IMG/VR virus record: IMGVR_UViG_3300027759_000092 | Span: 1 to 63,132 of that record | DNA length: 63,132 nt | Strand: one strand, 5' to 3' | Source of the DNA: a virus | Taxonomy: Duplodnaviria > Caudoviricetes | Part shown: one piece after another, positions 2,453-61,686 of the stretch | Numbering within the stretch: the first letter of the stretch is position 1 | Layout of the letters: each line of letters starts with the position of its first letter | Notes under the pieces: model-generated | Database searches by the model: none | What the model was told of the DNA's origin: nothing | The model's input: only the letters and a program-made list of their open reading frames with translations | Program-made: the position numbers and the translations under genes

Positions 2453-2462
2453 TGTTTAAACC

Positions 2463-2729
2463 TTAAGCCATCGGGCCACGAGCCATCAAACCTTTAGTCG
2501 CCGCACCTGTGCCGCGAACTTTGATGCCAGTTGTCTTGGGTTGCTCATCACCAGCAGACTTGCTGAAAGCACCAACGCTCATATCAAGCGTATCAAGCTT
2601 GCTACGATTAGGTTCTTTGCCGGGATTGGTAGAAGCTTTAACTTCTTTACCAGTCATAGTGTGTGGCTTGGCATAGACTGCGGCATCGCCAACTTCTTTG
2701 CCCATCATTTTCTTGCTATATGTAGCCAT
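2463..2729 (-). CDS. small basic protein with RGTGAATKG motif
   Basis: 88-aa Lys-rich ORF, tight operon packing. Confidence 0.6.
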   Translation of the reverse strand: MATYSKKMMGKEVGDAAVYAKPHTMTGKEVKASTNPGKEPNRSKLDTLDMSVGAFSKSAGDEQPKTTGIKVRGTGAATKGLMARGPMA

Positions 2730-2731
2730 GA

Positions 2732-2917
2732 TTAGCCTCGCTTCTGATTCATTGCACGGGCTAAGTTACGACCGACCTTACGCATTTCCATGCCTGTAAC
2801 GCCAGCAGTCTTCTTGCCGCCCATGATTTCTTTTGCGGTCGGGCCACTATTGCCTAAGTTTTTGCCCTCGGTTTTGCCCTTTTTAGCAATGCCGTCGGCT
2901 GATCTTGTGTATGCCAT
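2732..2917 (-). CDS. small basic protein with ADGIAKKGKTEG motif
   Basis: 61 aa, AGGAG RBS; motif shared with ORFs at 5007-6615. Confidence 0.65.
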   Translation of the reverse strand: MAYTRSADGIAKKGKTEGKNLGNSGPTAKEIMGGKKTAGVTGMEMRKVGRNLARAMNQKRG

Positions 2918-2928
2918 GTTTAAACTCC

Positions 2929-4498: not shown

Positions 4499-5004
4499 TT
4501 GTAACCACCGCCTGCGGCTTTGTAGCGTTTAGCCATTAACTGAGCCTTACGAGCCGACCACTGGCCTGCGCCTGTGCCCTGTACTGCGGCGGCTTTAACG
4601 CTGTTAAAGATCCGTTTACGTAACTCAGGCTTGGTGTAGTTGCCAGATTCATTTACTTTGGACTTTACTTTGCCACCTTCAGCAAATCGGTGTGTCAACT
4701 TAACACCACCGCCTTGTACCCCAGCGCCACGTTTATCCATCTTTGCATCTAGATAAGCCTGCAAAGAAGTGTTTTTATCCAATTGTTTTTCGGCAGTTAA
4801 ACGACCAGCCAGTTCTTTTGCATTTTTATCCAAGTTTAAACGTGGATTTTCAACGCCAAACTTAACCGCTTCTTCTTTCTCTTTGTCAGATACAGACCCA
4901 CCCATATCAAACTGAGTAAAGTCAGTGTCATCCCTTCGGGCTTTTTTAGAGCCTTTTGGCATTTTGCTTGGGAGAACGGCTCCCATTCCACGACTTGCCA
5001 TCAT
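4495..5004 (-). CDS. basic protein ending in the N-terminal half of DUF5872-like family
   Basis: NYTKPELRKR...GQWSARKAQLMAKRYKAAGGGYK; FDMGG and FAEGG motifs; ATG start taken at 5004. Confidence 0.65.
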   Translation of the reverse strand: MMASRGMGAVLPSKMPKGSKKARRDDTDFTQFDMGGSVSDKEKEEAVKFGVENPRLNLDKNAKELAGRLTAEKQLDKNTSLQAYLDAKMDKRGAGVQGGGVKLTHRFAEGGKVKSKVNESGNYTKPELRKRIFNSVKAAAVQGTGAGQWSARKAQLMAKRYKAAGGGYK

Positions 5005-5373: not shown

Positions 5374-6228
5374 TTAACAAATTTTGCCACGGGTCTTGCC
5401 TTTAGTGGCAATACCATCGGCACGACGAGAGGCTGAACTTACAGAACCACCACTAGCATAAGATCCTTTTTCGGCCTTTTCTTTTTGCTCTCTTGCTTTA
5501 CGTTTTGCTGGTGTTTCAAGGTTGCTGAAGTAATCAGCAACAGATGAACCCGCGCCTTTAACTTTTTCAGATGCAGATTTTATATTGGCAATATTTTCCG
5601 GCGTAAAAATCTCTTTAGACTTACCTTTAGGTGCGCTAGGGGGTGGAGCGGCAGGCTTTGCTTTTTCCGCTGGCGCTTTTTCAGCCTTAACGCTTCTTGG
5701 GTTATCCGCTTCCATCATTTCTTCTGTGTAGCGTTGGACATAAGCTGGCGCTTTAGGCGCTGAGTCAATCTTGCTTTCAGTTTTTGATGCAGAAGGTTTA
5801 GGAGCGGTTGGCTTGGGGGCTGTCTTTCTTGGATTGTCAGCTTCCATGATTGCTTCTGGATTACGTGGGCGGTTTGCATAGTCTTCAGCAACACTTGCAT
5901 CACCGGATGGTTGACGCATACCTTGCCTTCTACCCTCTGCAAAAATAGGATTAGGGTATGCAGGTGGGCGAACCACAGGCCTAGGTCTTTCAACTTCGGC
6001 GGGAGTTGCGGCAGGCATTTCTGAGCGTCCACGGCCAGCACCGAAGCGTTTGTATGCCTCAGAGCTAGGATCGTCTATATTGCCCATGCGTAAACGCTGG
6101 AAGAAGCCTACATCATCACCTTTAGATGCCGTAAGGCCAGCCTCTTTGTCGGCGGCCTCTTTAGGATCAACTGCTCCGCTAATTTCGCCGCCACCTTCGT
6201 AGCGTTTAAACTTCATAGGTTTTTTCAT
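5374..6228 (-). CDS. Pro/Ala/Lys-rich protein with YASGG and RADGIATKGKTRG tag
   Basis: 284 aa, low complexity, internal MEADNPR duplicate, AAGGA RBS. Confidence 0.7.
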   Translation of the reverse strand: MKKPMKFKRYEGGGEISGAVDPKEAADKEAGLTASKGDDVGFFQRLRMGNIDDPSSEAYKRFGAGRGRSEMPAATPAEVERPRPVVRPPAYPNPIFAEGRRQGMRQPSGDASVAEDYANRPRNPEAIMEADNPRKTAPKPTAPKPSASKTESKIDSAPKAPAYVQRYTEEMMEADNPRSVKAEKAPAEKAKPAAPPPSAPKGKSKEIFTPENIANIKSASEKVKGAGSSVADYFSNLETPAKRKAREQKEKAEKGSYASGGSVSSASRRADGIATKGKTRGKIC

Positions 6229-9007: not shown

Positions 9008-9036
9008 TTTATACCACTACGTTTAAACCAATGCAA
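9008..9036 (-). promoter_or_regulatory. sigma70-type promoter
   Basis: TTGCAT-17 nt-TATAAA with TG extension; GTTTAAAC lies in the spacer. Confidence 0.6.
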
Positions 9037-11091: not shown

Positions 11092-12032
11092 TTCCTCATT
11101 TCATTTGCAACCGCACGGGCATACTGTTCATTTGTCAGTCCTAACCGTTTGGCGAGATTCACTTGTGACTGCGTAAGTACGATCTTTTTAGGCGCTGTAC
11201 TACGGGTTGCAGGTGAAACAACATTGGATTTGGTACGTTGAGGTTTCGCATCAACGGACTCCCCGACTCCAATTTGGTCGGGAAATCTTTCGCGGATGTC
11301 AGTGTCTATACGTTTATAGTATTCGTCACTGCCAACCCGTACACCACTCTCCACAAGCTCTTCATGCAACCCTAAGGCGTATGAAGTCATCCGTTTGTTA
11401 CTACCGAACCATCGATTTTGGTCTTGCCATGCAGATAGTTTTTCGTCCACGGGTGCAGGCTGTGGAGCCTGTTGTGTGATTTGTACAGGAGTTTCTTCTT
11501 CCTGTAAAGGGGTAGGCTTAAAATTATTTACTTTATCTGCGCGGATCTTAGCGGTAGTGAGTGCTTCCTGAGCATCCAATAGCTTATCTGCGTCTCCAGA
11601 TTCGTAGGCTTCCTTGTAGAGGCGCTTGGCCTCTTCAATTTCGCCAGTAATAACTTTCTTAGCCTGCTCCAGTAGAACAGTCTGTCCCTGATTAACAGAA
11701 CCTTTGAGCTTTTTGTTCTCCTCAACCATAGATTGGGCGAACTTAATTGCTTCGTCTTTCTCTCGTTGAGCGGCTTCCTTAGCTCTGCGTTCCTCGTGGT
11801 AGCCCTTGGTAAAGTGTTTAAACCTATTCTTTACGCTCTCTGAATAGGTTGCCAACTCTTCCTCCGTGGGATCCTGCGGGGGTTCAGCCATGGGCGTTCT
11901 GTACTTGTCTTCTTCGGGGGTATCGTCTACCACCTCAATTTCAGGTTCAGCCTCTACAACTTTACCGCCCTTACGAGAGTTCTCTTCCTTTTCATCAGGG
12001 AACTCAAATTCGGTCTTTTCAATTTCAGCCAT
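11088..12032 (-). CDS. capsid scaffolding protein
   Basis: Acidic N-terminus, coiled-coil core, C-terminal LTQSQVNLAKRLGLTNEQYA helix motif; position between portal and MCP. Confidence 0.7.
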   Translation of the reverse strand: MAEIEKTEFEFPDEKEENSRKGGKVVEAEPEIEVVDDTPEEDKYRTPMAEPPQDPTEEELATYSESVKNRFKHFTKGYHEERRAKEAAQREKDEAIKFAQSMVEENKKLKGSVNQGQTVLLEQAKKVITGEIEEAKRLYKEAYESGDADKLLDAQEALTTAKIRADKVNNFKPTPLQEEETPVQITQQAPQPAPVDEKLSAWQDQNRWFGSNKRMTSYALGLHEELVESGVRVGSDEYYKRIDTDIRERFPDQIGVGESVDAKPQRTKSNVVSPATRSTAPKKIVLTQSQVNLAKRLGLTNEQYARAVANEMRK

Positions 12033-12446: not shown

Positions 12447-12636
12447 CTTCATACTCTTTCGTTTTTCGCACAAGGTCAGCAATTTCATACTGCGCGGTTT
12501 GCAGACCTCGGATATTGCCGCACAGTTCTTTGTAGTGATCGTGGGATTTAGCACCACCCTCACTGACAATCTGAATCAACTGCTTGAGGTGTTCTTCAAG
12601 CTTCTTGTTTAAACTTTCAAGCAGAGGATTCATCAT
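12439..12636 (-). CDS. small helical hypothetical protein
   Basis: 65 aa, coupled to portal and GroES-like genes. Confidence 0.65.
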   Translation of the reverse strand: MMNPLLESLNKKLEEHLKQLIQIVSEGGAKSHDHYKELCGNIRGLQTAQYEIADLVRKTKEYEDD

Positions 12637-15122
12637 TCACCTTTCGGTTTGTTGTTTGCGTTAAGCATCATTTGAAGAAGTTTTTGTTTAGCTTCAAGAT
12701 CTTGCTTCTGTTGGTTGTGAGCCAACGCTTGCTGGTGTTCTTCTTGCGCTCGGGTCATTTCTGACTGATGCCTCATAGCTTCCATGGCAATCTCCTGTTG
12801 CTGGCGCTGTGCGGCCATGGCAGGGTCTTCGCCTTGTTTGGTTGCCATATCCTGAGCTTTGAGTTGCAGTTCTGCTTGCTTGATAGCAAGCTCTCCCTGA
12901 ACCTTCTGAGCCTTGGTTTGAGCATCTTGTTGCTTGATCTGAAGCTCTGCCTGTTGCATCTGCATGACGGGGTCTTGCATTTGTTGTTGGGCTTGTTTCT
13001 GAGCCGCTTCGTTCTTGTTGATCTGGAGCAACTGAGCCGCCGCCTGAGCAACCAACTTGGACAACTGAACTTCAATGTCCTCTGGCATTTCAATGTTGGG
13101 CTTAGGTAAGGTGACACCCAGACGTTGCTCAATCTTGGAGCGGTACTGGAACGCAATGTGTTCCGCTACGTGCGCCATGATTGCGGCCTGCATCTGTTGA
13201 GCCATGGGGTTTTGCCCCATTTGCCCCATGACCATGGGATCCTGCATCATGGATGTATGTACAGCTATGTGTGCATCATGATCCTGATAGATGAAGGCTT
13301 TGGTTGGTTTACCTGTAAGGAATGCCATGTTCTCGGAGATAGGATCTCTGGGGGTCATGTCATCGTCTATAGGAACTAACTTGTCTGCGTTCTTGATACC
13401 TAGAACCTCAATCATCTGGCGGTGCAAGATGGGCAGGTTGTAGATCTGAGGAGCACCTTGAGCCAACTGAATCACAGCTTGATACTGCATGATCCTTTGA
13501 GCCATCGTTGCGCTGTTAGGATCTGATACGGGAATGACATCCACCATGTCATAGTCAGAGCGTTTAGCCTGTGGCGTTCCTGCAACAGGTGTGTACTCAT
13601 AGGACTCTGGGGTGTAGTCTCTGATGATTGACTTAAGGAGTTTAAACTCTTGTTTCATTGAGTAATGAACACGAGCCTGCACCGCAGACATTGTCTTAAG
13701 CTGGCGCTCAAGCAAAGCCAAAGTCGTACCTACAGGGGCGTTGGCAGACATATCGCTGATGTTCATATCTGCGATTGATCCAAGTCTCCGGCCTTCGTCT
13801 GTGATCTGGTTTAAGAGAGCCAAGAGAACCTGAGAGGGTTCCTTGTATGGCAGAGCCATGATGTTCTCTTTGACTGACCCACTGGGTACGTCCACATCTC
13901 GGAACTCACCGGGATTGATTGGGGTATCGTCATCCTTGATCCTTAGACCACGGGTCTTCAATCCACCGGGCAGATTAGACAGAGTACCTGCGTCTACGAG
14001 TTGACGAATGATAGATGTGCCTGCACGGGCGTAACCACCGATCAGGTGAATTAGACCCAGACCATAAGCACCAAATCCGGGTACATAGGTGTACTGGACA
14101 AAATGCTGGCGCTTTAAACGGTGCTCATCATCTTCATCCCAGTTACGTCGGACAGCAAGAATTTTTGTAGTCCCACGCTCCAAGGTAATGACGTAGGGAA
14201 GAGCAATCCCATCCTCATCCTCATAACCCGGTAAGTCGTAGTCTACGTGGATCTCATAAATCTGGTAGCGGTCATCATCCGATAGGTTGTAGCCTTGGTC
14301 TTCGGCTTTCTTCTTCTCTACGTCCGTGTAGAACTGGAGAGGATCTCCGAGGTCTTCATCCAGATAGAAACCTGAAACCTGAAGCTTGCGGATATCGTTC
14401 TTGGTCTTACGCATGATGTGCGTCACACGCTCGGAGGTCATGGCACTAGAAGCACCGTAGGGGATGATCACATCTTCAGCAGGGATAAAGATGGATGCCT
14501 GACGACCCATAGAAGGATCGTAGTAAACCTTCTTGAATGCCGCTCCGGCCAGACCTAGGGAGTACAGCATTCTTTCATGCTCAGGACGGTACTCAGGCAT
14601 ACCTTCCGTGAGCTTGTAGTTCATGTCGTCTTTGACACGCTCCGCCGCCTCTTCTTTAAGTTTATCAATTGCGCCAATGATCTCTGTCTTAACGGGGCCT
14701 TGAGCCGGGAATGTCTCAATAATAGTCTCACTTTGGAAACGGACAGCGGCTTCTGTAAGGACGGTCGAAAATACGCCACAGGCTCCAAGCCAAGGCTCTG
14801 TCCTTTCTTCATATTTCATCCCCAAAACATCTAGACCTTTGACGTACATATCAACCCAGTCTTTTCTGGAATTAATATCTGCGTCCACCATTTCAATCAG
14901 ATCACTGGCAATCTTCTGAAGTTCCCCTGCGTCCATGTATTCTGCGAGGTTGTCGCTAAAGCCTTCTTCCTCTTCCTCGGGCATCATGTCGATCTCGATG
15001 CCGTCCATGTTTAAACGCACCCCTTCTGGGTTCTCTATTTCAATCTCGATGACTGGTGTGTCGTCAAGCTCTAGGGCGTTTAAACCCATAGGGGCTTGGC
15101 TCAATGATTGTTCAATACTCAT
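12633..15122 (-). CDS. portal protein with long Gln-rich C-terminal barrel
   Basis: 829 aa immediately after TerL; P22-like Gln-rich coiled-coil tail. Confidence 0.85.
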   Translation of the reverse strand: MSIEQSLSQAPMGLNALELDDTPVIEIEIENPEGVRLNMDGIEIDMMPEEEEEGFSDNLAEYMDAGELQKIASDLIEMVDADINSRKDWVDMYVKGLDVLGMKYEERTEPWLGACGVFSTVLTEAAVRFQSETIIETFPAQGPVKTEIIGAIDKLKEEAAERVKDDMNYKLTEGMPEYRPEHERMLYSLGLAGAAFKKVYYDPSMGRQASIFIPAEDVIIPYGASSAMTSERVTHIMRKTKNDIRKLQVSGFYLDEDLGDPLQFYTDVEKKKAEDQGYNLSDDDRYQIYEIHVDYDLPGYEDEDGIALPYVITLERGTTKILAVRRNWDEDDEHRLKRQHFVQYTYVPGFGAYGLGLIHLIGGYARAGTSIIRQLVDAGTLSNLPGGLKTRGLRIKDDDTPINPGEFRDVDVPSGSVKENIMALPYKEPSQVLLALLNQITDEGRRLGSIADMNISDMSANAPVGTTLALLERQLKTMSAVQARVHYSMKQEFKLLKSIIRDYTPESYEYTPVAGTPQAKRSDYDMVDVIPVSDPNSATMAQRIMQYQAVIQLAQGAPQIYNLPILHRQMIEVLGIKNADKLVPIDDDMTPRDPISENMAFLTGKPTKAFIYQDHDAHIAVHTSMMQDPMVMGQMGQNPMAQQMQAAIMAHVAEHIAFQYRSKIEQRLGVTLPKPNIEMPEDIEVQLSKLVAQAAAQLLQINKNEAAQKQAQQQMQDPVMQMQQAELQIKQQDAQTKAQKVQGELAIKQAELQLKAQDMATKQGEDPAMAAQRQQQEIAMEAMRHQSEMTRAQEEHQQALAHNQQKQDLEAKQKLLQMMLNANNKPKGE

Positions 15123-17172: not shown

Positions 17173-17201
17173 AGTTTAAACGCATATGCGAACGTTCGCA
17201 A
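17173..17201 (-). promoter_or_regulatory. sigma70-type promoter overlapped by palindromes
   Basis: TTGCGA-17 nt-TAAACT; palindromes TGCGAACGTTCGCA (17187-17200) and CGCATATGCG (17181-17190). Confidence 0.6.
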
Positions 17202-18060: not shown

Positions 18061-18141
18061 GTTTAAACACCCCCGAATGTTAGTAACCGCAAACATAACC
18101 ATCCACTCATGTATGGACACCCACTGTTCCCATTATACAGG

Positions 18142-20080: not shown

Positions 20081-20105
20081 CCCCCGTTTAAACACATTAG
20101 AGAGA

Positions 20106-23441: not shown

Positions 23442-23463
23442 CACGTTTAAACAGGAGAGAACC

Positions 23464-50714: not shown

Positions 50715-52578
50715 TTTGATTCCTCAATAAACGAGCAAGAGCATCCATATCAGAGGATGCTAGGTTTTTAGGTGCTCCAAGCGCCCGTAATTTGTAATCG
50801 GTATCGCCACCAAACAACTCTTCCATCAATTTTATATTGGCATATGGATCTTGGCTAGGCATTGGAGCGTTTAAACCAAGATTAGCCATTAGCTCCTCAG
50901 TCGTTTTTTTCTTTGTATCCACTTTAGGAGGAACAACGGTTTTAGGGGGAACAGTTACTTTTGTGTCGTCCAACTTGACGCATTGATTTGTTGCCAAATC
51001 TAAGATGTAGCCTTTTGGGCATCCGTCTTCTTTTACATCATCATCGTCAGGAACGCAGAAACCTGTTCCGTCATCATGGAAACCGGGGCCGCATTTATTG
51101 TCATCATCGTCAACTACAACGTCATCTTTATCTGTTTTGCCAGTAACAAGCACCGTATCATCGCCAACATAGTTGTTGGTAGTGTCGCCAACTATGTCGT
51201 TTAAACTAATAAAGTCATTTAAAGATGTGCCGTTTTTGTTTCCGGTAATGACCAGTTCTTTTAAATCATCGGTGTAATTATTTGAAATGTTGCCAACAGG
51301 ATTGTTTAGGTTTAAGAAATCTTGTGAAGCATCATAATTGTTCTTGCCAGTTACCGTGACAGTGTCATCAGCACCAACGCCAATCATATTTAAAATATCT
51401 TGGTTGCTTAAACCACTGTCTTTAATGTCGTCAATGGTTTTAATGCCAATTGTTTCAAGGAAATCTGCGGTTTCTTTATCCAACCCTACAGAAGACAGGC
51501 TTTTAGTCCCAATATCCGCAGGGATACCCTCGTCTTGGTTGTCAAAAATATCTGTAAGGTTTTCTAGCTTGCCAAAGTAATCTTTAATTTGGTCTTTGCT
51601 GTAGCCAAGTCCTTTTAAACGAGTAATTTCCGTGTCGTCAAAGTTTCCAATAGTTGATTTATCAACGCCGCCAGATGTAGAGCCGCCATAAGTTTTGGCT
51701 AATCCAGTAACAGCATCAAATATTTTCTTCTCGTTGCCGCTACCTAAAGCTTGAGCAGTGCTTAAACCTTTAAGCAAATCGTTGGTTGTAAAACCTGTAT
51801 CGCCAAGATTAAAGTTAGTGTCCAAGTAAGGAGAGGCAATGTTAAGTGCACCGCTTAATGTGGGATCTTTAGCAAAGTTAATTGCCTTGTTAATATCGCC
51901 CAGTTTAAACCCTGTGTCGCCAATCTCCAGTGCGCCAGCACTACCTAATCCACCCTTTAATGCGCCTGTGAGGATGTTTTGGTCATTTACTGCGGCATTA
52001 AAACCACCAGCTAAAGCCCCGCCAGCACCAGCCGCCGCAGTGCCAGTCAAGCCAAACAAACTATTACCAAGCATTCCTGCGCCACCGCCCATGGTGAGAG
52101 CCGCCATAGCAATAGGGCCAAGGTCATTCCACATGGTTTTGAGGGCAGACTCATTCCATTTGCGACGGGCAATAGCATTGCCTTCTAAGTCGTAGTCGGT
52201 GATGTAATCACCTTCTTGCCTAGAAAAACCACCCAATGTTTTGGGAGCATCATCGTAGACTGGCGTGGCATCCATGCCTTGACCAATGTAATCAATGATT
52301 TTTCTATTATCTTTTTCCCCTGCCATCCAACCGCTACCATATTGGACGGGTATGTAATCTATGGTAGTGCCTTGCTCTGTTACGTTCTCTCGGGCTTGCG
52401 TAGCACCCATTTGGTTATACATGGCTTTAAGTTCAGCCAATGTAGGTGTGGCTGATAGCGGTGTAAATTGACGTGTTTCTGCCGCAGGAGCTTGCCTTTG
52501 TTCATCACGTAAAGCGGCGGCGGCTTCCCAACTACCAGTCAGTTGGTACAGTTCTTCATCGCTCATTGGTTCTGCCAT
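50707..52578 (-). CDS. candidate ejection protein with Gly/Ala hydrophobic segment, TonB-box-like repeats and Cys-pair repeats
   Basis: IAMAALTMGGGAGMLG segment; DTVTVTG, ELVITG, DTVLVTG; CGPGF...C and CPKGY...C; ATG at 52578. Confidence 0.65.
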   Translation of the reverse strand: MAEPMSDEELYQLTGSWEAAAALRDEQRQAPAAETRQFTPLSATPTLAELKAMYNQMGATQARENVTEQGTTIDYIPVQYGSGWMAGEKDNRKIIDYIGQGMDATPVYDDAPKTLGGFSRQEGDYITDYDLEGNAIARRKWNESALKTMWNDLGPIAMAALTMGGGAGMLGNSLFGLTGTAAAGAGGALAGGFNAAVNDQNILTGALKGGLGSAGALEIGDTGFKLGDINKAINFAKDPTLSGALNIASPYLDTNFNLGDTGFTTNDLLKGLSTAQALGSGNEKKIFDAVTGLAKTYGGSTSGGVDKSTIGNFDDTEITRLKGLGYSKDQIKDYFGKLENLTDIFDNQDEGIPADIGTKSLSSVGLDKETADFLETIGIKTIDDIKDSGLSNQDILNMIGVGADDTVTVTGKNNYDASQDFLNLNNPVGNISNNYTDDLKELVITGNKNGTSLNDFISLNDIVGDTTNNYVGDDTVLVTGKTDKDDVVVDDDDNKCGPGFHDDGTGFCVPDDDDVKEDGCPKGYILDLATNQCVKLDDTKVTVPPKTVVPPKVDTKKKTTEELMANLGLNAPMPSQDPYANIKLMEELFGGDTDYKLRALGAPKNLASSDMDALARLLRNQNA

Positions 52579-52925: not shown

Positions 52926-55006
52926 CGTCTGCCGTCCGGTCTAATGTCAATACGGGTAGAACCCAACTGCCATGTTGTTCCAAGGTTAGAGGAACCAACC
53001 TTTAAGATAAGTTGACGACCCCGAACCCGTGTATTAATCTGACCTGTAAAGCCTTCAGTCACTGTGTATTGAGCGCCCGTCAGCTTGTCTACATCACCCG
53101 TTGCAGGCGTACCTGTACCAGAACCTGAGTTCTTCATTGGGTATAAGGTGTAAGTTACTTCAGGCGTAGGAGATGCGTCAGAGCCTGAGAACGTCAGATC
53201 AGGCAACATTCTCCAGACAAAGCCAAAGTGTTCTCCGTCTTCAATGTCAAACTCAGAAGAAGAGATGTAAGAAGTAATGCCTGCGGGTGTACCTGTTTCG
53301 TTGTTGTCTAAGCCATATTCTTGATTAACCAAGTTATAGCTGTATGTAGCGGCTACAGGGTAGTCTCTTAGACCAGAGTCCAGCCATGCTGTTCGTGCCA
53401 TCGTGCCGTAGTACCAGACCTTTTCAAGGTAGTTGTACACCACATAACGATCCACAGTTAAGCTACCCGTTGAGCAGTAGAACCACCAGATTTCGTTAAA
53501 ACCCTCGTTGGTACTAGCAAAGACCTGTTGGTTCTGGTCAAGGTTAATGTCTTGATAAATGTACCTACGCAGGTCGCAACTTAATGTTTGTAAGCGTCCA
53601 TCGTACATATAGAACTTATCTACGCCCATCCAGTACACCACGCCTGAAGCTTGGGCGGCGGCGTTTTGACCCAGAATAGAAATGTTGTCACCCATCAACT
53701 GGCTAGACCAGACCACAGGTGGGCCAATGTACTGCATAGAATAAATAGCAGAATCAGTCCACACCAAAATCTCTTGACGAGTCTGGATGGCGGTCACAAT
53801 GCTGGAGCCGTGGGACAAGGTAACGCTACCAGCTTGATTGGTTGCAGAGGGTGTCCAGTCAACCAAAGACTCCTGATCCGACCAGCGAACCAACATAGGA
53901 CTCTGCACTGTAGAACTATAGTCATTACAGCCAAATGCAAACACAAACCGACTTACATCAGATACGTAGATGAAGTTCTGGATAATCGGAGCATCCGAAG
54001 ACCCGGCCAGACTTGTGATGTTTACACCATTAGGCATGATGTAGTGAATACCAGACTGCGATCCAGAGGTGGTAATAGCCGCACCGCCGGGTGTTAGAGA
54101 CAAGTTAAATGTCGTACCAGTGGTGTTTTTAACATAGTAGACAGTGCCGACCGACAATCCTGTAGGCAAAGCAGACGGATAACCTGAGTTTGTCAAAACA
54201 ACTGGAGTGTTGTTTACCAGTGAAATAGACGTAGTTACTACGGCAGAAGCACCAATCGTGACCGTAAAGGACGCTGGTGATAAACCAAACGAAGCATCCC
54301 AATAGTAAATTGGGCCACCACGGTAGCCATAAATTAAATCTTCGCCAAAGTTATTCTGGCTCCATAGACGCAGAGCGGCGTTACTTGTACCACTAAAGCC
54401 CCAAGTGCCAGAACCCCAAGCGCCTGCGCCCCAGCCTGTTTGTGGTGTTTCGTAAGCTACGCCAGTATTAATCTGGTAGACAGCAGACACTGTAGTGCCG
54501 CCGCCGGTTGCAGTAGATGAAGCCGCAGAAGCCGCTGTGATGTTGTATGTATCTGCATCAATCAGAGTAATCTGATATTCATTGTTTAGGTTTAAACCAC
54601 CCACAGTAGCTACATTGCTGAAGCTCACAAAGTCTCCGTTAGCCGCGCCATGCGCTGAGTCAGTGACTAGAACTGTGGTACTTGTATTGGTGGTAGTAAA
54701 AGGGTTGCTTAATACAGCCGCCGCACGGATAGGCGTGATGTCGTAATACTGACCGCCATTCTCAAGGTAAAACTTTAAGTTAGTACCCACTCCGATTAGG
54801 TTCAAATTCTCAAGCGTGATCCAGTTCCACAAAGAACGGCATACACCTTGGAAATAAGAAACAGAGATACGTGCCCAGCCACCAATCTTTTCAGGCGTAC
54901 CTTGGCGAAACCGCACTTTGTCGGACTCATACCAACCATTCTCGTTGGTATAACGGGTGTTCTCCCGGTTTACTCCCGGCTTCATTGCAAGTTTTTTAAG
55001 TGCCAT
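52922..55006 (-). CDS. tail nozzle / packaged-DNA stabilisation protein (P22 gp10-like)
   Basis: 694 aa beta-rich; KVRFRQG, VRWSDQE, EIWWFY, VVYNYLE; precedes ejection genes. Confidence 0.7.
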   Translation of the reverse strand: MALKKLAMKPGVNRENTRYTNENGWYESDKVRFRQGTPEKIGGWARISVSYFQGVCRSLWNWITLENLNLIGVGTNLKFYLENGGQYYDITPIRAAAVLSNPFTTTNTSTTVLVTDSAHGAANGDFVSFSNVATVGGLNLNNEYQITLIDADTYNITAASAASSTATGGGTTVSAVYQINTGVAYETPQTGWGAGAWGSGTWGFSGTSNAALRLWSQNNFGEDLIYGYRGGPIYYWDASFGLSPASFTVTIGASAVVTTSISLVNNTPVVLTNSGYPSALPTGLSVGTVYYVKNTTGTTFNLSLTPGGAAITTSGSQSGIHYIMPNGVNITSLAGSSDAPIIQNFIYVSDVSRFVFAFGCNDYSSTVQSPMLVRWSDQESLVDWTPSATNQAGSVTLSHGSSIVTAIQTRQEILVWTDSAIYSMQYIGPPVVWSSQLMGDNISILGQNAAAQASGVVYWMGVDKFYMYDGRLQTLSCDLRRYIYQDINLDQNQQVFASTNEGFNEIWWFYCSTGSLTVDRYVVYNYLEKVWYYGTMARTAWLDSGLRDYPVAATYSYNLVNQEYGLDNNETGTPAGITSYISSSEFDIEDGEHFGFVWRMLPDLTFSGSDASPTPEVTYTLYPMKNSGSGTGTPATGDVDKLTGAQYTVTEGFTGQINTRVRGRQLILKVGSSNLGTTWQLGSTRIDIRPDGRR

Positions 55007-55009: not shown

Positions 55010-55453
55010 TTAATCCAACAAAGCGCACTCAGCCGTGCGGCGTTTAAACAGTCCCGGCAGTACCTTACCGCCACCTTTAGTCCAGAGCATCAGTTGTTCT
55101 TTTGCCCCTTCCCAATCATTGGCATTGATTTTCCTCTTTAACGTGCTTGTTTGCAAGCGTCCAGTGCCTAAGTTATAGCAGAAATCTACGATGGCATTGC
55201 ACTTACGAACGTCTGTAATCAGACCGGGACAGTTACGCAGAACACCGGGCAGGTACGTATGCTCAAGCTCAATCATCAAAAGCGCCCGTGCCGTAGGTTC
55301 ATCCATCGGCGCATCTTCCAAAGTGACCTTGCGTTTATCTGCATAGTAAGTAGAACCATAGCCAATCGTGGCTACGCCTGCCGGACATAAATACGGCTTA
55401 GCGCGGTAGCCCTCAAACTGACGGCACAGACTGGCGGCTAACTCTAGGTTCAT
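55010..55453 (-). CDS. endolysin, GH24 lysozyme
   Basis: FEGYRAKPYLCPAGVATIGYG (E-x8-C-x5-T), YNLG, LPGLFKRR. Confidence 0.92.
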   Translation of the reverse strand: MNLELAASLCRQFEGYRAKPYLCPAGVATIGYGSTYYADKRKVTLEDAPMDEPTARALLMIELEHTYLPGVLRNCPGLITDVRKCNAIVDFCYNLGTGRLQTSTLKRKINANDWEGAKEQLMLWTKGGGKVLPGLFKRRTAECALLD

Positions 55454-55635: not shown

Positions 55636-56126
55636 ATGCCGCGTTGCTTCAAAGTACGGTCAAGGAACCAATAGTTAATTGTCCCAGACAGTAGGGCAGA
55701 GAAGTCGGGTGTCATCATGGTCTTAAACACTTCTACGGCTGGCGCACCGGCAAGCCATGCGTTCCATGCAAACCATACATGGATGAATGACCAAACAAAC
55801 AAGACCCAGTAAGTCACAACCGGGCGTACAGAAGCTGACAGACTAGCTACCCAACCGCCTGCGGCTTTGACCATCTCGGCCTGCTGAGTGATGGCGTTGT
55901 TAAACGCATCCATTACACCTACGTCCATAGCGGCTTCGCGTTGAGCGCCTATCTCAGCCAACTTCTGCTGACCGCGCTGGGCTTCCAAGTCACACTGATG
56001 TTTAAACATAGCCAGTTCATGCAGGCGCTCATTCTTCTTGTCAAAGAACTTCAGCACTTCGGGGGCCATTCGGAACAGCCCACCAAACACAGAACCCAGA
56101 ATACCGCCACTTAATATGTCTAACAT
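55632..56126 (-). CDS. holin-like membrane protein
   Basis: ASVRPVVTY motif, hydrophobic segments, upstream of endolysin. Confidence 0.65.
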   Translation of the reverse strand: MLDILSGGILGSVFGGLFRMAPEVLKFFDKKNERLHELAMFKHQCDLEAQRGQQKLAEIGAQREAAMDVGVMDAFNNAITQQAEMVKAAGGWVASLSASVRPVVTYWVLFVWSFIHVWFAWNAWLAGAPAVEVFKTMMTPDFSALLSGTINYWFLDRTLKQRGI

Positions 56127-58232: not shown

Positions 58233-59123
58233 TTAAAAAGTTACTGTGCCAGAAGATGTAAATGTGTAAATTTGATACCCATCAGCGTAGTTTATCTGAG
58301 GGCTTCCTGTTGTGGAAGTGGGTGCTGATTGTGTTGCAGGGTAACGAATGATTACGATGCCAGAACCGCCTGCGCCAACCATCGCAAGAGTTGCATTTAT
58401 TGATGAATTTACACCGCACCCAGCACCGCCTCCTGTATTTGCCCTGCCGTTTCCATTTGTAAGATTTGCGCCATCTATCCCGCCGTCACCTCCACCAGCA
58501 CAACCAATACCAGCAAAAACCGCACCACCGCCACCACCACCGCCTGCGTAAAAAACTCGTGCGCCTGTTATGGTTGAGCAGATGCCAGCACCACCATTAC
58601 CACCAAGACCCGCTGATGTTCCATTTAAACCAACAGAACCAGCACCACCACCGCCACCGCAGGCTCTAGCCCCCGATGAAGAAGCGCTACCATTTCCAGT
58701 CCCACCAGCAAATCCTTGACCAGATGTGCCTGTTCCACCGCTACTTGTTCCATTTATATTTGATGTAGCACCGCCACCTCCAGAACCACCATTTTGTCCG
58801 TTATTAAGAACTCCATTTGAACCAGCACCTCCACCCCCACCTCCAGTAGAAGTAATGGAACTAAAAATAGAGTTACTACCAGAATTTGCGGTTCCTGTTG
58901 CGGCGGCACCTCCAGCACCAACAGTCACAGTCAAAGCAGTGCCAGTAGCAACAACAAAATTAGCCGCCTGTTGAGCGCCCCCACCGCCACCGCCACCGCC
59001 ACCAGATTGAGTAAAGCCGCTTCCACCCCCACCAGCGACCACTAGATATTCAACAGTCGTAGGCGCACCAGACAGTGGGTTAAAGGTTGCGGAAAGGAAT
59101 CCACCTAATAAAGTTTGACTCAT
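58233..59123 (-). CDS. glycine-rich tail fibre/adhesin
   Basis: VEYLVVAGGG...GGSGIVIIRY. Confidence 0.8.
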   Translation of the reverse strand: MSQTLLGGFLSATFNPLSGAPTTVEYLVVAGGGGSGFTQSGGGGGGGGGAQQAANFVVATGTALTVTVGAGGAAATGTANSGSNSIFSSITSTGGGGGGAGSNGVLNNGQNGGSGGGGATSNINGTSSGGTGTSGQGFAGGTGNGSASSSGARACGGGGGAGSVGLNGTSAGLGGNGGAGICSTITGARVFYAGGGGGGGAVFAGIGCAGGGDGGIDGANLTNGNGRANTGGGAGCGVNSSINATLAMVGAGGSGIVIIRYPATQSAPTSTTGSPQINYADGYQIYTFTSSGTVTF

Positions 59124-59124
59124 T

Positions 59125-60816
59125 TCAACTCCATTTAATAATCACAACGCCAGAGCCACCGTTGCCGGGAATGCCGGTATACAGTCCTGAAGCTATGTTG
59201 GTTATTCCGCTTCCGCCGCCACCGCCACCCAAACCACTAGTGCCATTAGATGCGTTAGCAAAACCCCCACCACTACCTGCTCCACCGCCACCAGCACCAC
59301 CTGCGCCGCCAGTGGCAGGTGCGCCAGTAGTATATGTAGCGCCGCCTCCGCCACCAGCATAAGTTATGGATGTACCCGTAATAGAAGATGCTGTACCAGC
59401 ACCGCCAGCACCGCCAGCAGAACTTGTGCCATTAGAGCCAACTGCGCCTGCTCCACCACCGCCACCAGCACCACGATTACCAGCAGTTACTGCGTTTCCG
59501 CCTGAATTTCCTTGGCTTGGGGATGTGCTAGGCGTATTTCCTGCACCGCCAACTCCAGCTACCGTAGCAGTTGCGTAATCGACGCATCCACCGCCGCCAG
59601 AACCACCAGCAACGCCTGTAGTGGTTGAGCTACAAGTTGCTCCACCACCGCCACCAGCGGCAGTTATAGAACTAAAAACTGAGTTCCCGCCACTAACTCC
59701 AGCAACACCAGAACTTCCATTAGGCATACCGCCAGTACCACCAGCGCCTACAGTTACCGTGTATGTTGTACCAGCGGTGACAGATAAACCTGTGGCAGTA
59801 CGGAATCCACCCGCACCACCTCCGCCTGCCGTACCCGCACCGCCACCGCCGCCACCACCAACAACCAAGTACTGCACTTGTGTAGCACCTGCGGGAGCAG
59901 TCCATGACCCAGATGAAAAGAATACAACTACATTAGCCGCAAGCAAATTAGTAGGCGTAGTAGGCGCTAATGTTCCTGAAGATGTAAATGTATGAACAAC
60001 ATTACCTGCCGCATAAGTAACGGTTCCGCCAGTGTAAAACTGCACAGAGCCGGGGTATCTGACTATTACGATGCCTGAACCACCAGAAGCTGTACCAGAA
60101 GCCCAACCAGAGCCTGCCGCCGTACCACCACCGCCGCCACCTGTGTTTGCTGTTCCTGATACTCCAACGTCATAAGCGGCAACTCCCCCGTATCCACCGC
60201 CACCTATGCCACCTTTACCAGCATAAGTACCATTGTAAGAGCCGCCACCACCACCTCCAGCATAAGCTGTAACAGTTCCAGAAATAGCAGACGCAATACC
60301 AGACCCGCCACTTGCCGAAGAACTTGTCGGACTGCTTAATCCTACTGTACCAGCGCCGCCGCCACCTGCCCCACCTGTTCCATTGGTAGCGCTACTAGCG
60401 CCGCCACTATTTCCTTGACCAGACACACCAGCCCCAGAGACACCTGTGTAACCACTAGTAAACCCGCCCCAGCCGCCACCAGAACCACCAGAACTACCGG
60501 GAATTGCGTTGTATGTGCCACCTTTTCCACCGCCAGTTGAAGAAATATTTCCAAATACAGAATTTGATCCATTAGCGCCATTAGGAGCGCCAGAGCCTCC
60601 ACCACCAACAGTCACGGTATAAGAAGTTCCTGCCGTTACTGGATAAATTCCAGTTAATAGACCGCCAGCGCCACCACCTCCGCCAACCTCACCGCCACCA
60701 CAACCGCCGCCAGCAACGCAAAGGTACTCTACCCATTGAGGTGGATTAAATGCTGACCATGCGCCTTGACGAATGGCTTGGTTAACTTGTCTGAGTGTAA
60801 AAAGACCTTGTGCCAT
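59125..60816 (-). CDS. glycine-rich tail fibre/adhesin with two tandem domains
   Basis: VEYLCVAGGG...GGSGIVIVRY then VQYLVVGGGG...GGSGVVIIKW. Confidence 0.8.
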   Translation of the reverse strand: MAQGLFTLRQVNQAIRQGAWSAFNPPQWVEYLCVAGGGCGGGEVGGGGGAGGLLTGIYPVTAGTSYTVTVGGGGSGAPNGANGSNSVFGNISSTGGGKGGTYNAIPGSSGGSGGGWGGFTSGYTGVSGAGVSGQGNSGGASSATNGTGGAGGGGAGTVGLSSPTSSSASGGSGIASAISGTVTAYAGGGGGGSYNGTYAGKGGIGGGGYGGVAAYDVGVSGTANTGGGGGGTAAGSGWASGTASGGSGIVIVRYPGSVQFYTGGTVTYAAGNVVHTFTSSGTLAPTTPTNLLAANVVVFFSSGSWTAPAGATQVQYLVVGGGGGGGAGTAGGGGAGGFRTATGLSVTAGTTYTVTVGAGGTGGMPNGSSGVAGVSGGNSVFSSITAAGGGGGATCSSTTTGVAGGSGGGGCVDYATATVAGVGGAGNTPSTSPSQGNSGGNAVTAGNRGAGGGGGAGAVGSNGTSSAGGAGGAGTASSITGTSITYAGGGGGATYTTGAPATGGAGGAGGGGAGSGGGFANASNGTSGLGGGGGGSGITNIASGLYTGIPGNGGSGVVIIKWS

Positions 60817-60822
60817 ATATCC

Positions 60823-61686
60823 TCAGAATGTAATTGTTCCAGATGCTACGAATTTATACACCCGATACTGACCCGCAATGTATGTTTCTGGTGATCCAGT
60901 TGTTGATGTGGCAGGGGCTAAGTAAGATGGGTAGCGTAGGACTACGATTCCAGAGCCACCTGTACCACCTGCGGCTTGCGGATCATTTGCCCCGCCACCA
61001 CCACCACCGCCTGTATTTGCTAATCCTGAAAATCCATCCTGCCCTGCAACAGAACCTGCATTACCACCTCCAGCAACCCCTAATCCAGCAGAACCTGTAG
61101 CAGATGGGAATTCTCTGCTTCCTCCACCACCGCCTGCATATTGAATTGAAGAGCCTGAAATACTTGAAGCAATACCTGCGCCCCCACTTCCACCATTGTT
61201 TCCGGGAGTTGCAGATACTCCAACAGAACCAGCACCACCGCCACCGCCAGCGGCAACAGGCGAAGAGGTAGTGGCAGTCCCACCGTTATTACCTTGCCCA
61301 GCCGTTCCAGTTCCACTTCCTGATGTTCCGCTACCACTGCCCCCAGCAGAGCCACCATTTCCACCACCTGAAGTAGAGCCACCGCCCCCATATCCACCGC
61401 CTGTGGAAGTAATACTGCTAAAAACACTATTTGAGCCAGCAGTACCACTGCCAGCAGTACCACGAGCGCCACCAGCGCCACCAGCGCCAATAGTAATTGT
61501 CAAGGCAGAACCCGTAGCAACAGCAAACCCAGTCGCAGTCAATAGGCCACCCCCGCCACCTCCGCCAGCACGGTCAGCACCACCACCACCCCCGCCAGCC
61601 ACACATAAGTATTCCACCTCTGTGACAGGGTAGTTAATGCCGTTTAAACCGGCTGATAAGTATCCGCCAACTCTTTCAAGAGACAT
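60823..61686 (-). CDS. glycine-rich tail fibre/adhesin
   Basis: VEYLCVAGGG...GGSGIVVLRY. Confidence 0.8.
   Translation of the reverse strand: MSLERVGGYLSAGLNGINYPVTEVEYLCVAGGGGGGADRAGGGGGGGLLTATGFAVATGSALTITIGAGGAGGARGTAGSGTAGSNSVFSSITSTGGGYGGGGSTSGGGNGGSAGGSGSGTSGSGTGTAGQGNNGGTATTSSPVAAGGGGGAGSVGVSATPGNNGGSGGAGIASSISGSSIQYAGGGGGSREFPSATGSAGLGVAGGGNAGSVAGQDGFSGLANTGGGGGGGANDPQAAGGTGGSGIVVLRYPSYLAPATSTTGSPETYIAGQYRVYKFVASGTITF

What the first reader, a model, noticed from the sequence alone, without database searches (positions are those of the whole stretch)
2454..61649. Genome-wide hyper-abundant palindrome GTTTAAAC (HIP1-like)
Seen: I hand-counted about 54 exact copies (e.g. 2454, 2918, 4834, 9021, 15009, 17107, 17174, 18061, 20086, 23445, 23684, 24034, 25661, 25701, 25732, 26052, 30006, 30051, 34941, 35000, 40261, 51199, 61642). 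About 1 is expected for an 8-mer in 63 kb. One-off variants (GTTTACAC/GTGTAAAC, GTTTAAAT, GTTTAAAG) are also common. Copies occur in coding DNA in different frames (RLN/GLN and FKQ/FKR peptides) and in intergenic DNA, so the constraint is at the DNA level. Density is highest at 15-36 kb and lowest in the fibre genes. Phages normally avoid palindromes, and I see no methyltransferase in the window. Inference: binding sites for a nucleoid, packaging or recombination factor, or a methylation/repair-driven ratchet as proposed for cyanobacterial HIP1.
Basis: seen in the sequence. Interest (0 to 1): 0.8.

Follow-up and report, generated by a model that had tools for sequence, protein, structure and literature searches.

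The report
Phage word GTTTAAAC and its reader protein
This freshwater phage keeps 54 copies of the eight-letter palindrome GTTTAAAC by selection on the DNA itself, and comparison with many other phages points to one small phage protein, a zinc-ribbon relative of the Spartan/SprT proteases (here without its catalytic site), as the likely reader of that word.

Summary
The window is a complete 63-kb phage record with 54 exact GTTTAAAC, against about 1.3 expected. The excess survives a codon-preserving shuffle (42 in genes against 3.3). Sites are conserved 3.5 times better than other 8-mers in relatives that are 78% identical.

It is not a host-type HIP1. An unbiased clustering of ORFs around GTTTAAAC clusters in unrelated viral contigs gave one top family. 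Among 42 viral records of 20 kb or more, 16 of 16 with the gene and 0 of 26 without it reach 0.4 sites per kb.

Cultured phages of Actinobacteria and Proteobacteria that carry this zinc ribbon are enriched for the same word or for GTTTACAC. Phages with another tail on the protein are not. Low-copy phages keep one site 13-19 nt upstream of the gene.

In this clade the HExxH protease motif is lost, yet the gene stays under purifying selection and the site count is unchanged. So binding, not proteolysis, is tied to the word.

Binding and function are untested. I found no paper on this pairing. This scan has noted it before on other phages.

The parts
19466..20080 (+). Candidate reader gene, 204 aa. 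It has a SprT-like (Spartan/Wss1-type) N-domain with the catalytic HExxH...H replaced by SQxxR...T, plus a C-terminal 'KQxTR' zinc ribbon.
   Evidence: Top family in the unbiased ORF clustering. Alignment A1: 11 of 16 members hit PF10263, the window copy none. phrog_6361, E 7e-22. AF2 pLDDT 81.9. Best fold matches are Spartan 6mdx_A (Z 7.8, rmsd 4.1, 102 aligned) and 6mdw (Foldseek E 4e-3). dN/dS 0.15.
19892..20077 (+). C-terminal domain of that protein (residues 143-204): YPH, KSQGTR, a C-x2-C...C-x-C zinc ribbon, and R..T.KW. It is the proposed DNA-reading module.
   Evidence: Invariant R, C, R, C and near-invariant H, Q, T in alignment A3. dN/dS 0.028. It occurs alone as a 60-aa protein in enriched contigs L209, L219 and L278. 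Its presence covaries with word enrichment in cultured phages. The fold is a generic zinc ribbon only (Z <= 3.0).
20086..20093 (.).
   Evidence: A site within 50 nt downstream of the gene occurs in 13 of 27 loci, against 2.1 expected from local density.
25661..25796 (.). Intergenic array of four sites (25661, 25701, 25732, 25789). The first three have repeated flanks (GCTGTGG.GC before the word). It lies after a terminator-like hairpin and upstream of the primase/helicase operon.
2454..2461 (.). Site, intergenic, between a stop and the next minus-strand start codon (SD-word-ATG layout)
2918..2925 (.). Site, abuts a minus-strand ATG (AGGA-word-ATG); the ORF call here is doubtful
4834..4841 (.). 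Site in CDS 4495-5013 (-)
6204..6211 (.). Site in CDS 5374-6228 (-)
9021..9028 (.). Site, intergenic, downstream of the major head gene 9076-9987 (-)
11816..11823 (.). Site in CDS 11088-12032 (-)
12607..12614 (.). Site, intergenic, between 12042-12569 and the portal gene
13640..13647 (.). Site in the portal gene 12633-15122 (-)
15009..15016 (.). Site at the 5' end of the portal ORF; abuts an in-frame ATG (GGGG-N3-word-ATG)
15078..15085 (.). Site at the 5' end of the portal ORF, or in the TerL-portal spacer
17107..17114 (.). Site in small ORF 16924-17154 (-)
17174..17181 (.). Site, intergenic
17416..17423 (.). Site in the small terminase gene 17362-18120 (-)
18061..18068 (.). Site in the small terminase ORF; abuts an ATG
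20552..20559 (.). Site in the AAA (CobS/MoxR-like) gene 20025-21533 (+)
20948..20955 (.). Site in the AAA gene
22085..22092 (.). Site in CDS 21544-22551 (+)
22694..22701 (.). Site in the VWA (CobT-like) gene 22533-23213 (+)
23445..23452 (.). Site just upstream of AGGAGA-N5-ATG of a small + gene
23684..23691 (.). Site just upstream of AGGAGA...ATG of the next small + gene
24034..24041 (.). Site, intergenic, just upstream of GGGAGA...ATG of gene 24054-24413 (+)
24551..24558 (.). Site in CDS 24429-24809 (-)
24891..24898 (.). Site, intergenic
26052..26059 (.). Site in CDS 25791-26171 (-)
26103..26110 (.). Site in CDS 25791-26171 (-)
26947..26954 (.). Site in the primase/helicase gene 26161-27843 (-)
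27866..27873 (.). Site in CDS 27840-28079 (-)
30006..30013 (.). Site, intergenic (pair with 30051)
30051..30058 (.). Site, intergenic, beside the RusA-like gene 30114-30512 (-)
31148..31155 (.). Site in the PD-(D/E)XK nuclease gene 30517-31437 (+)
32022..32029 (.). Site in the Sak annealing-protein gene 31424-32152 (+)
32683..32690 (.). Site in a small, doubtful ORF
34941..34948 (.). Site in CDS 34882-35067 (+)
35000..35007 (.). Site in CDS 34882-35067 (+)
35498..35505 (.). Site in ORF 35349-35621 (-)
35786..35793 (.). Site in CDS 35593-35889 (+)
37451..37458 (.). Site in the 3549-aa ORF 35867-46516 (-)
37900..37907 (.). Site in the 3549-aa ORF
39691..39698 (.). Site in the 3549-aa ORF
40261..40268 (.). 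Site in the 3549-aa ORF
43328..43335 (.). Site in the 3549-aa ORF
44879..44886 (.). Site in the 3549-aa ORF
50869..50876 (.). Site in CDS 50707-52593 (-)
51199..51206 (.). Site in CDS 50707-52593 (-)
51903..51910 (.). Site in CDS 50707-52593 (-)
54590..54597 (.). Site in the virion structural gene 52922-55006 (-)
55042..55049 (.). Site in CDS 55010-55453 (-)
56000..56007 (.). Site in CDS 55632-56126 (-)
61642..61649 (.). Site in CDS 60823-61686 (-)

Best explanation
The 54 GTTTAAAC words are most likely docking sites on double-stranded phage DNA for the phage's own 204-aa protein, encoded at 19466-20080.

How the protein is built. It has a Spartan/SprT-type N-domain and a small C-terminal zinc ribbon with an invariant Q-x-T-R and a second invariant Arg. 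I infer that the zinc ribbon reads the word. A predicted symmetric homodimer would put two ribbons on the two halves of the palindrome.

How the sites are kept. Selection holds sites where they exist and makes new ones, down to the choice of synonymous codons and even of tripeptides. The result is about 0.85 sites per kb, densest in the early/replication region. The fibre-type genes have none; my inference is that these genes are often exchanged and have not had time to gain sites.

What the protein does. In most phages it carries an intact HExxH. I infer that it is there a protease tethered to phage DNA at these addresses, and also an autoregulator through a site at its own gene. In this phage's clade the catalytic residues are gone but the zinc ribbon and the sites are kept. 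Here it must therefore act by occupancy alone, for example as a roadblock, a shield, or an organiser of early-region DNA.

Shown: the enrichment, selection on sites, the gene-word co-occurrence, the tail-word covariation, and loss of the catalytic motif under purifying selection. Inferred: physical binding, the dimer, and every statement about function.
For: (1) Selection on the word. 54 observed against 1.26 expected. 42 in CDS against 3.3 after a synonymous shuffle (maximum 9 of 1000). 19 of 23 and 23 of 31 peptide contexts able to hold the word do hold it. Those tripeptide contexts are themselves in excess: 23 against 7.0 and 31 against 13.7 in amino-acid-order shuffles. Site conservation against three relatives about 78% identical is 24/32, 14/20 and 18/26, while only 20.6% of all aligned 8-mers are conserved. 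Relatives have sites of their own where the window has unrelated sequence.

(2) An unbiased link to the gene. I clustered all ORFs from 100 viral stretches that hold three words close together. The family present in most loci (30 loci, 26 of them with >= 1 site/kb) contains window ORF 19376-20080. At whole-record level, among 42 records of >= 20 kb, 16/16 with the gene and 0/26 without reach 0.4 sites/kb. Gene-bearing medians are 1.04/kb against 0.25/kb (80 records). The closest gene-less relatives, DSL-LC04 and 023Pt_psg01 (TerL 58%), have 0 and 3 copies. Relatives G001-G003 with the gene have 52, 49 and 52.

(3) Cultured phages with a homologue. The word or GTTTACAC/GTGTAAAC is the top 8-mer in R5C (17 against 0.04), Mica (7 against 0.1), Tweety19 (27 against 0.09), Zeta1847 (22 against 0.08) and Microdon (43 against 0.05). 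Bacteriophage 4A has 14 (13 GTGTAAAC/GTTTACAC plus 1 GTTTAAAC; its C-terminal type was not examined). Of the ten whose C-terminus I read, the six with KQxTR plus zinc ribbon include all five enriched ones plus ep3 (4 against 0.9). The four with another C-terminus have 0-1 copies: Dismas and Armstrong lack KQxTR, FP1 and Epa5 lack the zinc ribbon.

(4) Operator-like placement. One site lies 13-19 nt upstream of the gene in ep3, Mica, Persinger, Mano and F_TK1718sp, which hold only 2-7 sites each. One site lies within 50 nt after the stop in 13 of 27 loci, against 2.1 expected, the window included.

(5) Separation of function in this clade. The motif reads HExxH in G002, AMxxH in G001 and G003, and SQxxR or AQxx in the window, L203, L224, L208 and L273, yet site counts stay at 46-54 per genome. 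dN/dS is 0.15 overall and 0.028 in the zinc ribbon. Only 3 of the best 150 family representatives lack HExxH.

(6) Dimer. The homodimer model scores 0.77, with best control 0.00. That mark was reached by 20 of 30 proteins solved as pairs of one chain and by 1 of 23 solved as single chains. The runs share at least 66% of contacts and the partner's pLDDT is at least 82. My own alignment was used, so these counts hold only roughly. The model supports binding; it does not show it.
Against: No binding experiment exists and no protein-DNA model could be run, so the link is correlational.

The records compared are not phylogenetically independent; I estimate about ten lineages. All were ascertained through clusters of the word.

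The window has no site within 100 nt upstream of its own gene.

The C-domain model matches only generic zinc ribbons (Z <= 3.0).

The variant GTTTACAC is not a palindrome. It dominates in actinophages, which fits a symmetric dimer poorly.

Other DNA binders in the window were not excluded as readers: an RNA polymerase alpha-CTD-like protein at 34096-34464 and a LexA-type winged helix.

The negative set for the tail-word covariation is only two lineages.

The window protein itself matches no Pfam family.
Confidence: 0.7

Rival explanations
1. Another factor reads the word, and the SprT-like gene only travels with it. Candidates are another phage protein (the alpha-CTD-like protein at 34096-34464 or a LexA-type winged helix) or a host protein such as RNA polymerase or a nucleoid protein.
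For: An alpha-CTD domain (PF03118, E 6e-20) binds AT-rich DNA in bacteria (general knowledge). A LexA_DNA_bind hit exists. The association is correlational.
Against: No other family is shared across the unrelated enriched loci. The next clusters are TerL and portal of the window's own broad clade. Enrichment follows the type of C-terminus on the SprT-like protein. A site sits at the gene's own start in five low-copy phages. No sigma-70-type promoter match overlaps a site in 16500-36000: 11 matches against 23 in shuffles.
Confidence: 0.12
2. A HIP1-like host process. The word is made abundant by a methylation- or repair-driven bias, or by a function of the host chromosome, and the phage merely mirrors its host.
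For: It is an 8-bp palindrome about 40-fold in excess and conserved inside and between ORFs, as reported for HIP1 (abstract of PMC5861425). The host of this phage is unknown.
Against: The same word is enriched in phages with GC 0.34-0.71 and with hosts in Actinobacteria, Alpha- and Betaproteobacteria. Gene-less relatives lack it. No methyltransferase was found. Five bacterial genomes that held local clusters of the word were not enriched genome-wide, at 30-118 copies against 19-98 for the reversed control. No candidate host genome was tested.
Confidence: 0.05
3. An RNA- or translation-level signal. GUUUAAAC appears in transcripts of both strands, serves as an AU-rich spacer between the Shine-Dalgarno sequence and the start codon, and contains the slippery heptamer U UUA AAC.
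For: Four sites abut a start codon (2454, 2918, 15009, 18061). Three sit just upstream of the ribosome-binding sites of consecutive small genes (23445, 23684, 24034). 12 of 54 lie in about 5% non-coding DNA.
Against: 42 sites are inside genes, in two frames and about equally (23 and 19). In Microdon the non-palindromic variant lies in both orientations relative to the gene (10 same, 14 opposite, on partial GC3-based gene calls). The link to a DNA-binding-type protein is not explained by this reading.
Confidence: 0.05
4. Chance, base composition, codon usage or an assembly artefact.
For: None beyond the fact that TTTAAA is a common hexamer here (101 copies).
Confidence: 0.01

Closest known systems
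Stoperator/operator arrays of Cluster A mycobacteriophages (L5 gp71-type repressor). I read passages of PMC6550527.
   Same: There are 20-30 or more cognate sites for one phage-encoded DNA-binding protein, spread through the whole genome. Some are true operators at promoters and most are not. The site motif co-varies with the protein.
   Different: Stoperators are 13-bp asymmetric sites oriented with transcription, bound by the immunity repressor of temperate phages. Here the word is an 8-bp palindrome and mostly inside genes (42 of 54). The protein is a SprT-like/zinc-ribbon protein. The phage has no integrase match. The same word is shared by unrelated phages across phyla.
HIP1 (GCGATCGC) of cyanobacteria. 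I read the abstract of PMC5861425.
   Same: An 8-bp palindrome, tens-fold over-represented, conserved within and between ORFs, with no peptide or RNA role evident and no known reader.
   Different: HIP1 is a property of cellular chromosomes of one phylum. This word is phage-borne, follows one phage gene, and is absent from gene-less relatives.
Spartan/SPRTN and Wss1 DNA-dependent proteases (PDB 6mdw/6mdx, 5xbn) and bacterial SprT (PF10263).
   Same: The N-domain has the same fold and family: Z 7.8 to 6mdx_A, and 11 of 16 relatives hit PF10263. A small zinc-containing DNA-binding part follows the protease domain. The Cluster AZ preprint 10.1101/2025.05.26.655371 (passages) makes the same assignment for Lizalica gp46.
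   Different: From general knowledge, Spartan and Wss1 bind DNA without sequence preference and repair DNA-protein crosslinks. Here a specific 8-bp address is implied, and the window copy has lost HExxH.
ArdC of plasmid R388. I saw only the search listing and the start of the abstract of PMC7213743.
   Same: A mobile-element protein that joins a DNA-binding part to a metalloprotease domain, used to get past host restriction. It is a precedent for a DNA-tethered protease as counter-defence.
   Different: ArdC binds single-stranded DNA without a known address and belongs to another family. No counter-defence role was tested here.

Membership tests
SprT-like / Spartan-Wss1 minigluzincins (PF10263) | Sequence match to the family profile | tested here: inconclusive
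   The window protein alone has no Pfam hit. It aligns over its full length (41-43% identity) with relatives L204 and L299, and 11 of 16 A1 members hit PF10263 (best E 1.2e-6). The profile against the PDB gives Spartan at E 0.16.
SprT-like / Spartan-Wss1 minigluzincins (PF10263) | HExxH zinc-binding catalytic motif with a third His downstream | tested here: not met
   The window has SQLCR...T where relatives have HE(L/M)xH...GH. So it is a member by descent but not an active protease.
SprT-like / Spartan-Wss1 minigluzincins (PF10263) | Fold of the protease domain | tested here: met
   On the AF2 model (pLDDT 81.9), the top four VIA matches are Spartan 6mdx_A (Z 7.8, rmsd 4.1, 102 aligned), abylysin 4jiu (Z 7.0), Wss1 5xbn (Z 7.0) and selecase 4qhf (Z 6.4). 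Foldseek's top hit is 6mdw, E 4e-3. The Z values are middling, but all top rows are one superfamily.
SprT-like / Spartan-Wss1 minigluzincins (PF10263) | DNA-dependent proteolysis | not testable with these tools
   This needs biochemistry.
HIP1-type highly iterated palindrome | 8-bp palindrome, 15- to 300-fold over-represented and conserved between genomes | tested here: met
   37- to 50-fold by Markov order 0-2. Site conservation is 69-75%, against 20.6% for the background.
HIP1-type highly iterated palindrome | A property of the cellular (host) chromosome of a lineage | tested here: inconclusive
   The host is unknown and no host genome was tested. The word follows a phage gene across hosts of several phyla, which argues against this.
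HIP1-type highly iterated palindrome | Proposed link to a cognate DNA methyltransferase (recalled from the HIP literature, not read here) | tested here: not met
   No PF01555, PF02086 or PF00145 match at E <= 1.
Stoperator-type repressor site arrays | Tens of cognate sites dispersed over the phage genome | tested here: met
   54 sites.
Stoperator-type repressor site arrays | [quoted passage not shown] | tested here: not met
   The word is a palindrome. Its non-palindromic variant lies in both orientations in Microdon (10 same, 14 opposite, on partial gene calls).
   No PF00589 or PF00239 integrase match in the window. The candidate reader belongs to a different protein family.
   A site lies 13-19 nt upstream of the gene in five other phages. 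In the window the nearest sites are 5 nt after the stop and 1.4 kb upstream.

The most novel reading that the evidence does not exclude
A portable 'protein plus 8-bp address' system of phages. A Spartan-type DNA-dependent protease is tethered to the phage's own double-stranded DNA at GTTTA(A/C)AC. There it removes host proteins that sit on or travel along that DNA, such as silencers, restriction or defence complexes, or crosslinked proteins, and it regulates itself through a site at its own gene. The address is kept genome-wide by selection in phages of several bacterial phyla. This window's clade would be a natural separation-of-function mutant: the protease is dead, the zinc ribbon and the sites persist, and occupancy alone has a selected role.
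Probability: 0.25. Interest if true: 0.9.

Novelty: new variant of a known kind. Interest (0 to 1): 0.78.

Why it matters
If the pairing holds, one short word would mark phage DNA for a phage protein in thousands of phage lineages. The family has 4542 representatives at 50% identity with E <= 0.001.

That would give:
- a testable example of selection on a DNA word strong enough to shape codon and even amino-acid choice;
- a first function-linked handle on the 'SprT-like protease' genes annotated without function in many actinophages;
- a possible case of a sequence-addressed protease on DNA;
- a simple sequence signature (gene plus word) for grouping uncultured phages.

The protease-dead clade found here shows which half of the protein the word depends on.

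Tried and rejected
Host search by the word. Five genomes with local clusters were not enriched genome-wide; some of these are REP-like repeats, according to earlier notes.

'Relatives' cannot be drawn for a virus record.

A direct search for PF10263 in the window found nothing. The gene was found only through the clustering.

The planned gene-to-word test on IMG/VR was replaced by GenBank phages.

My greedy gene caller is unreliable in high-GC phages, so I discarded the orientation counts. Only the GC3-based counts are used, and only as weak evidence.

The zinc-ribbon domain alone gave no informative fold match (Z <= 3.0, E >= 0.6).

Promoter reading: no sigma-70-like match overlaps a site. 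The host's promoter type is unknown.

Literature: I found no paper on this word as an over-represented motif in phages or on a sequence-specific phage SprT-like protein. Supplementary files could not be read. [quoted passage not shown]

An RNA-labelled run holds related contigs. This does not show transcription.

Full report
WHAT THE WINDOW IS. The window is a whole IMG/VR virus record (63,132 bp, CheckV 100% complete). It holds a tailed-phage gene set: TerL, portal and major head, TerS, and primase/helicase. It also has a Sak/PD-(D/E)XK/RusA recombination module, CobS/CobT-like AAA and VWA genes, and a 3549-aa ORF. Its nearest named relatives by TerL are aquatic phages: DSL-LC04 at 58%, 023Pt_psg01, two Pelagibacter phages and three cyanophages. 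No tyrosine or serine integrase matches. Public runs that hold the sequence are labelled freshwater metagenomes.

There are 54 exact GTTTAAAC, against 1.26 expected from dinucleotide-preserving shuffles (maximum 4) and 1.1-1.5 from Markov orders 0-2. Flanks are unique, so this is a word and not a repeat element.

Shuffling synonymous codons within each gene leaves 3.3 sites (maximum 9 of 1000), against 42 observed in genes. Of the peptide contexts that could carry the word, 19 of 23 and 23 of 31 do so. Those tripeptides are themselves 2-3 times too frequent. So the word has shaped both codon choice and protein sequence.

Density peaks at 15-36 kb (1.57/kb) and is zero over the two blocks of fibre-type genes.

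SELECTION, NOT INHERITANCE ALONE. Eighty contigs with TerL 86-98% identical hold 611 copies in 718,772 bp, the same 0.85/kb as the window. The reversed control word occurs 9 times.

Three near-complete relatives share only about half of the window at blastn level, at about 78% identity. They have 52, 49 and 52 copies. In the aligned part, 69-75% of window sites are intact in the relative, against 20.6% of all 8-mers. Each relative also has sites where the window has unrelated sequence.

So sites are both kept and newly made, and the total is held near 50. This cannot separate selection from a directional drive by itself. The results below favour selection for a reader.

Earlier notes of this scan tie the same word in other phages to a SprT-like zinc-ribbon protein. 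I took that as a lead only, and a direct Pfam search of the window for PF10263 found nothing.

I therefore ran an unbiased test. A scan of IMG/VR for three words within short distances returned 100 stretches with GC 0.19-0.57. I clustered all their ORFs together with the window's. The family present in most loci (30 loci, 26 of them with at least 1 site/kb) includes a window ORF that my gene caller had dropped: 19376-20080, with a likely start at Met 19466.

Most members carry HExxH, and 11 of 16 hit PF10263. The AF2 model of the window protein (pLDDT 81.9) is closest to Spartan, abylysin, Wss1 and selecase (Z 7.8-6.4). All members end in a conserved 'YPH ... KQxTR ... C-x2-C ... R.T.KW ... 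C-P-x-C' zinc ribbon.

HOW TIGHT THE LINK IS. I searched the whole records behind those stretches for the gene and for the word. Eighteen of the 100 stretches could not be searched, or shared a record with another stretch.
- Among the 42 records of at least 20 kb, 16 of 16 with the gene reach 0.4 sites/kb, and 0 of 26 without it do.
- Among records at least 90% complete, the four with the gene have 0.50-0.74/kb and the eleven without have 0.04-0.34/kb.
- Several gene-less ones owe their copies to tandem arrays in terminal repeats.
- The two closest gene-less relatives of the window have 0 and 3 copies.

These records are not independent. I count about ten lineages by GC and protein similarity. 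All were found through the word, so the P value should not be read literally.

CULTURED PHAGES GIVE AN INDEPENDENT LOOK. tblastn finds the protein in 161-164 GenBank phages. I examined 15 of them.
- The word is the top 8-mer in Dinoroseobacter phage R5C (17 against 0.04) and Burkholderia phage Mica (7 against 0.1).
- The one-letter variant GTTTACAC/GTGTAAAC is the top 8-mer in Arthrobacter phage Tweety19 (27 against 0.09), Microbacterium phage Zeta1847 (22 against 0.08) and Streptomyces phage Microdon (43 against 0.05). Bacteriophage 4A has 13 copies of the variant plus one GTTTAAAC (14 in all). This variant is also the most enriched variant in the window.
- No enrichment is seen in Dismas, Quenya, Armstrong, FP1 or Epa5.

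I read the proteins of ten of the fifteen. All enriched phages among them have the KQxTR zinc ribbon. Dismas and Armstrong have a different sequence there, and FP1 and Epa5 have no zinc ribbon. The word thus follows the C-terminal domain and not the protease domain.

Two further facts point the same way. A 60-aa protein made of the zinc ribbon alone is the only family member in enriched contigs L209, L219 and L278 (20 sites in a complete 40-kb record). The ribbon is also the most constrained part of the window gene (dN/dS 0.028).

PLACEMENT AT THE GENE. In phages with only 2-7 copies, one copy sits 13-19 nt upstream of the gene's start: ep3, Mica, Persinger, Mano and F_TK1718sp. Tweety19 has two sites within about 85 nt upstream. 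Microdon has one site 71 nt upstream and one 7 nt after the stop.

In the metagenomic loci a site lies within 50 nt after the stop in 13 of 27, against 2.1 expected, including the window at 5 nt.

WHAT THIS WINDOW ADDS. In the window's clade the catalytic motif has decayed in several ways: HELCH in G002, AMLCH in G001 and G003, SQLCR or AQLCR in the window, L203 and L224, AQLAC in L208, and SQLAH in L273. Only 3 of the best 150 family representatives lack HExxH, and two of those belong to this clade.

The gene nevertheless stays open and under purifying selection (dN/dS 0.15), and the genomes keep 46-54 sites. So whatever keeps the word does not need proteolysis.

A homodimer is predicted with score 0.77, best control 0.00. 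That mark was reached by 20 of 30 proteins solved as pairs of one chain and 1 of 23 solved as single chains. The runs share at least 66% of contacts and the partner's pLDDT is at least 82. My own alignment was used, so the counts hold only roughly. The model supports a dimer but does not show it. A dimer would suit a palindrome, though the non-palindromic variant in actinophages fits it less well.

FUNCTION. This is inference.
- In Tweety19, Microdon and R5C the sites are spaced more evenly than chance (CV 0.54-0.61; at most 3% of random placements are as even). In the window's clade they are clustered (CV 1.1-1.6) in the early/replication region.
- Even spacing suggests genome-wide coverage: a shield, a tether or an organiser. 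Clustering in early genes suggests control of that region.
- The best-supported statement is only that the protein is a sequence-specific DNA binder that also controls itself.
- My preferred fuller reading is that in most phages the protein is a protease tethered to phage DNA, by analogy with Spartan and ArdC, and that here it is reduced to occupancy. I give that about one chance in four.

RIVALS. A host-driven HIP1-like process is unlikely, for the reasons above and for lack of a methyltransferase, but the host is unknown and untested. Another reader is not excluded, for example the alpha-CTD-like protein at 34096-34464 or a LexA-type domain; no such family is shared across the unrelated enriched loci. 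An RNA or translation role could explain the few sites at start codons, but not the 42 sites inside genes in two frames or the link to the protein.

WHAT IS KNOWN. I found no paper on this word in phages. [quoted passage not shown] It reports no site (passages read). Stoperators (passages of PMC6550527) and HIP1 (abstract of PMC5861425) are the nearest known patterns, and both differ in defining features. Within this scan the pairing has been noted several times on other phages. I re-derived it independently. I add the protease-dead clade, the stand-alone zinc ribbon, the tail-word covariation and the site at the gene.

Noticed in passing
window 35867-46516 (-): One ORF of 3549 aa among the structural genes. 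It hits only PHROGs of unknown function (phrog_9854, phrog_18222, in its last 700 residues). Its size recalls the virion RNA polymerases of N4-like phages, but no such match was seen.
   Followed up: no
window 34096-34464 (+): A 122-aa phage protein whose C-terminal half matches the C-terminal domain of the RNA polymerase alpha subunit (PF03118, E 6e-20). It may be a decoy or adaptor for UP-element or activator contacts. It has no PHROG match.
   Followed up: partly
window 25640-25800: After a terminator-like hairpin, three of four clustered sites carry repeated flanks (GCTGTGG.GC before the word). This looks like iterons beside the primase/helicase operon and could be an origin or a control region.
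   Followed up: partly
window 23440-24060: Three consecutive small genes each start with the same layout: (C/T)ACGTTTAAAC, 0-2 nt, (A/G)GGAGA, 4-5 nt, ATG. This resembles the 'start-associated sequences' described for some mycobacteriophages (recalled, not checked).
   Followed up: no
window, whole: CCACCGCC (32 copies) and CCGCCACC (31) are also far above expectation (1.9 each). They probably come from glycine-rich repeats on the minus strand: four proteins hit PF21722 Gly_rich_2.
   Followed up: no
   Followed up: no
GenBank phages Epa5 (L349-L352) and FP1 (L338-L341): These two phages have a SprT-like protein without a zinc ribbon. They are enriched for another word, CCCTGGGC: 42 against 3.8 and 26 against 4.3. 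Zeta1847 has CGAGCTCG 81 against 17. I did not test whether these belong to the variant tails.
   Followed up: no
GenBank phages Tweety19, Microdon and R5C (L324-L326, L335-L337, L342-L345): Their sites are spaced more evenly than random placement (CV 0.54-0.61; P 0.001, 0.000 and 0.03 from 5000 placements). This is the opposite of the clustering in the window's clade.
   Followed up: partly
IMG/VR records G032 and G075 (loci L229/L248, L285): These are phages without the gene that carry tandem arrays of the word, with 22- or 29-bp periods, inside their direct terminal repeats. This is a different use of the same word.
   Followed up: no
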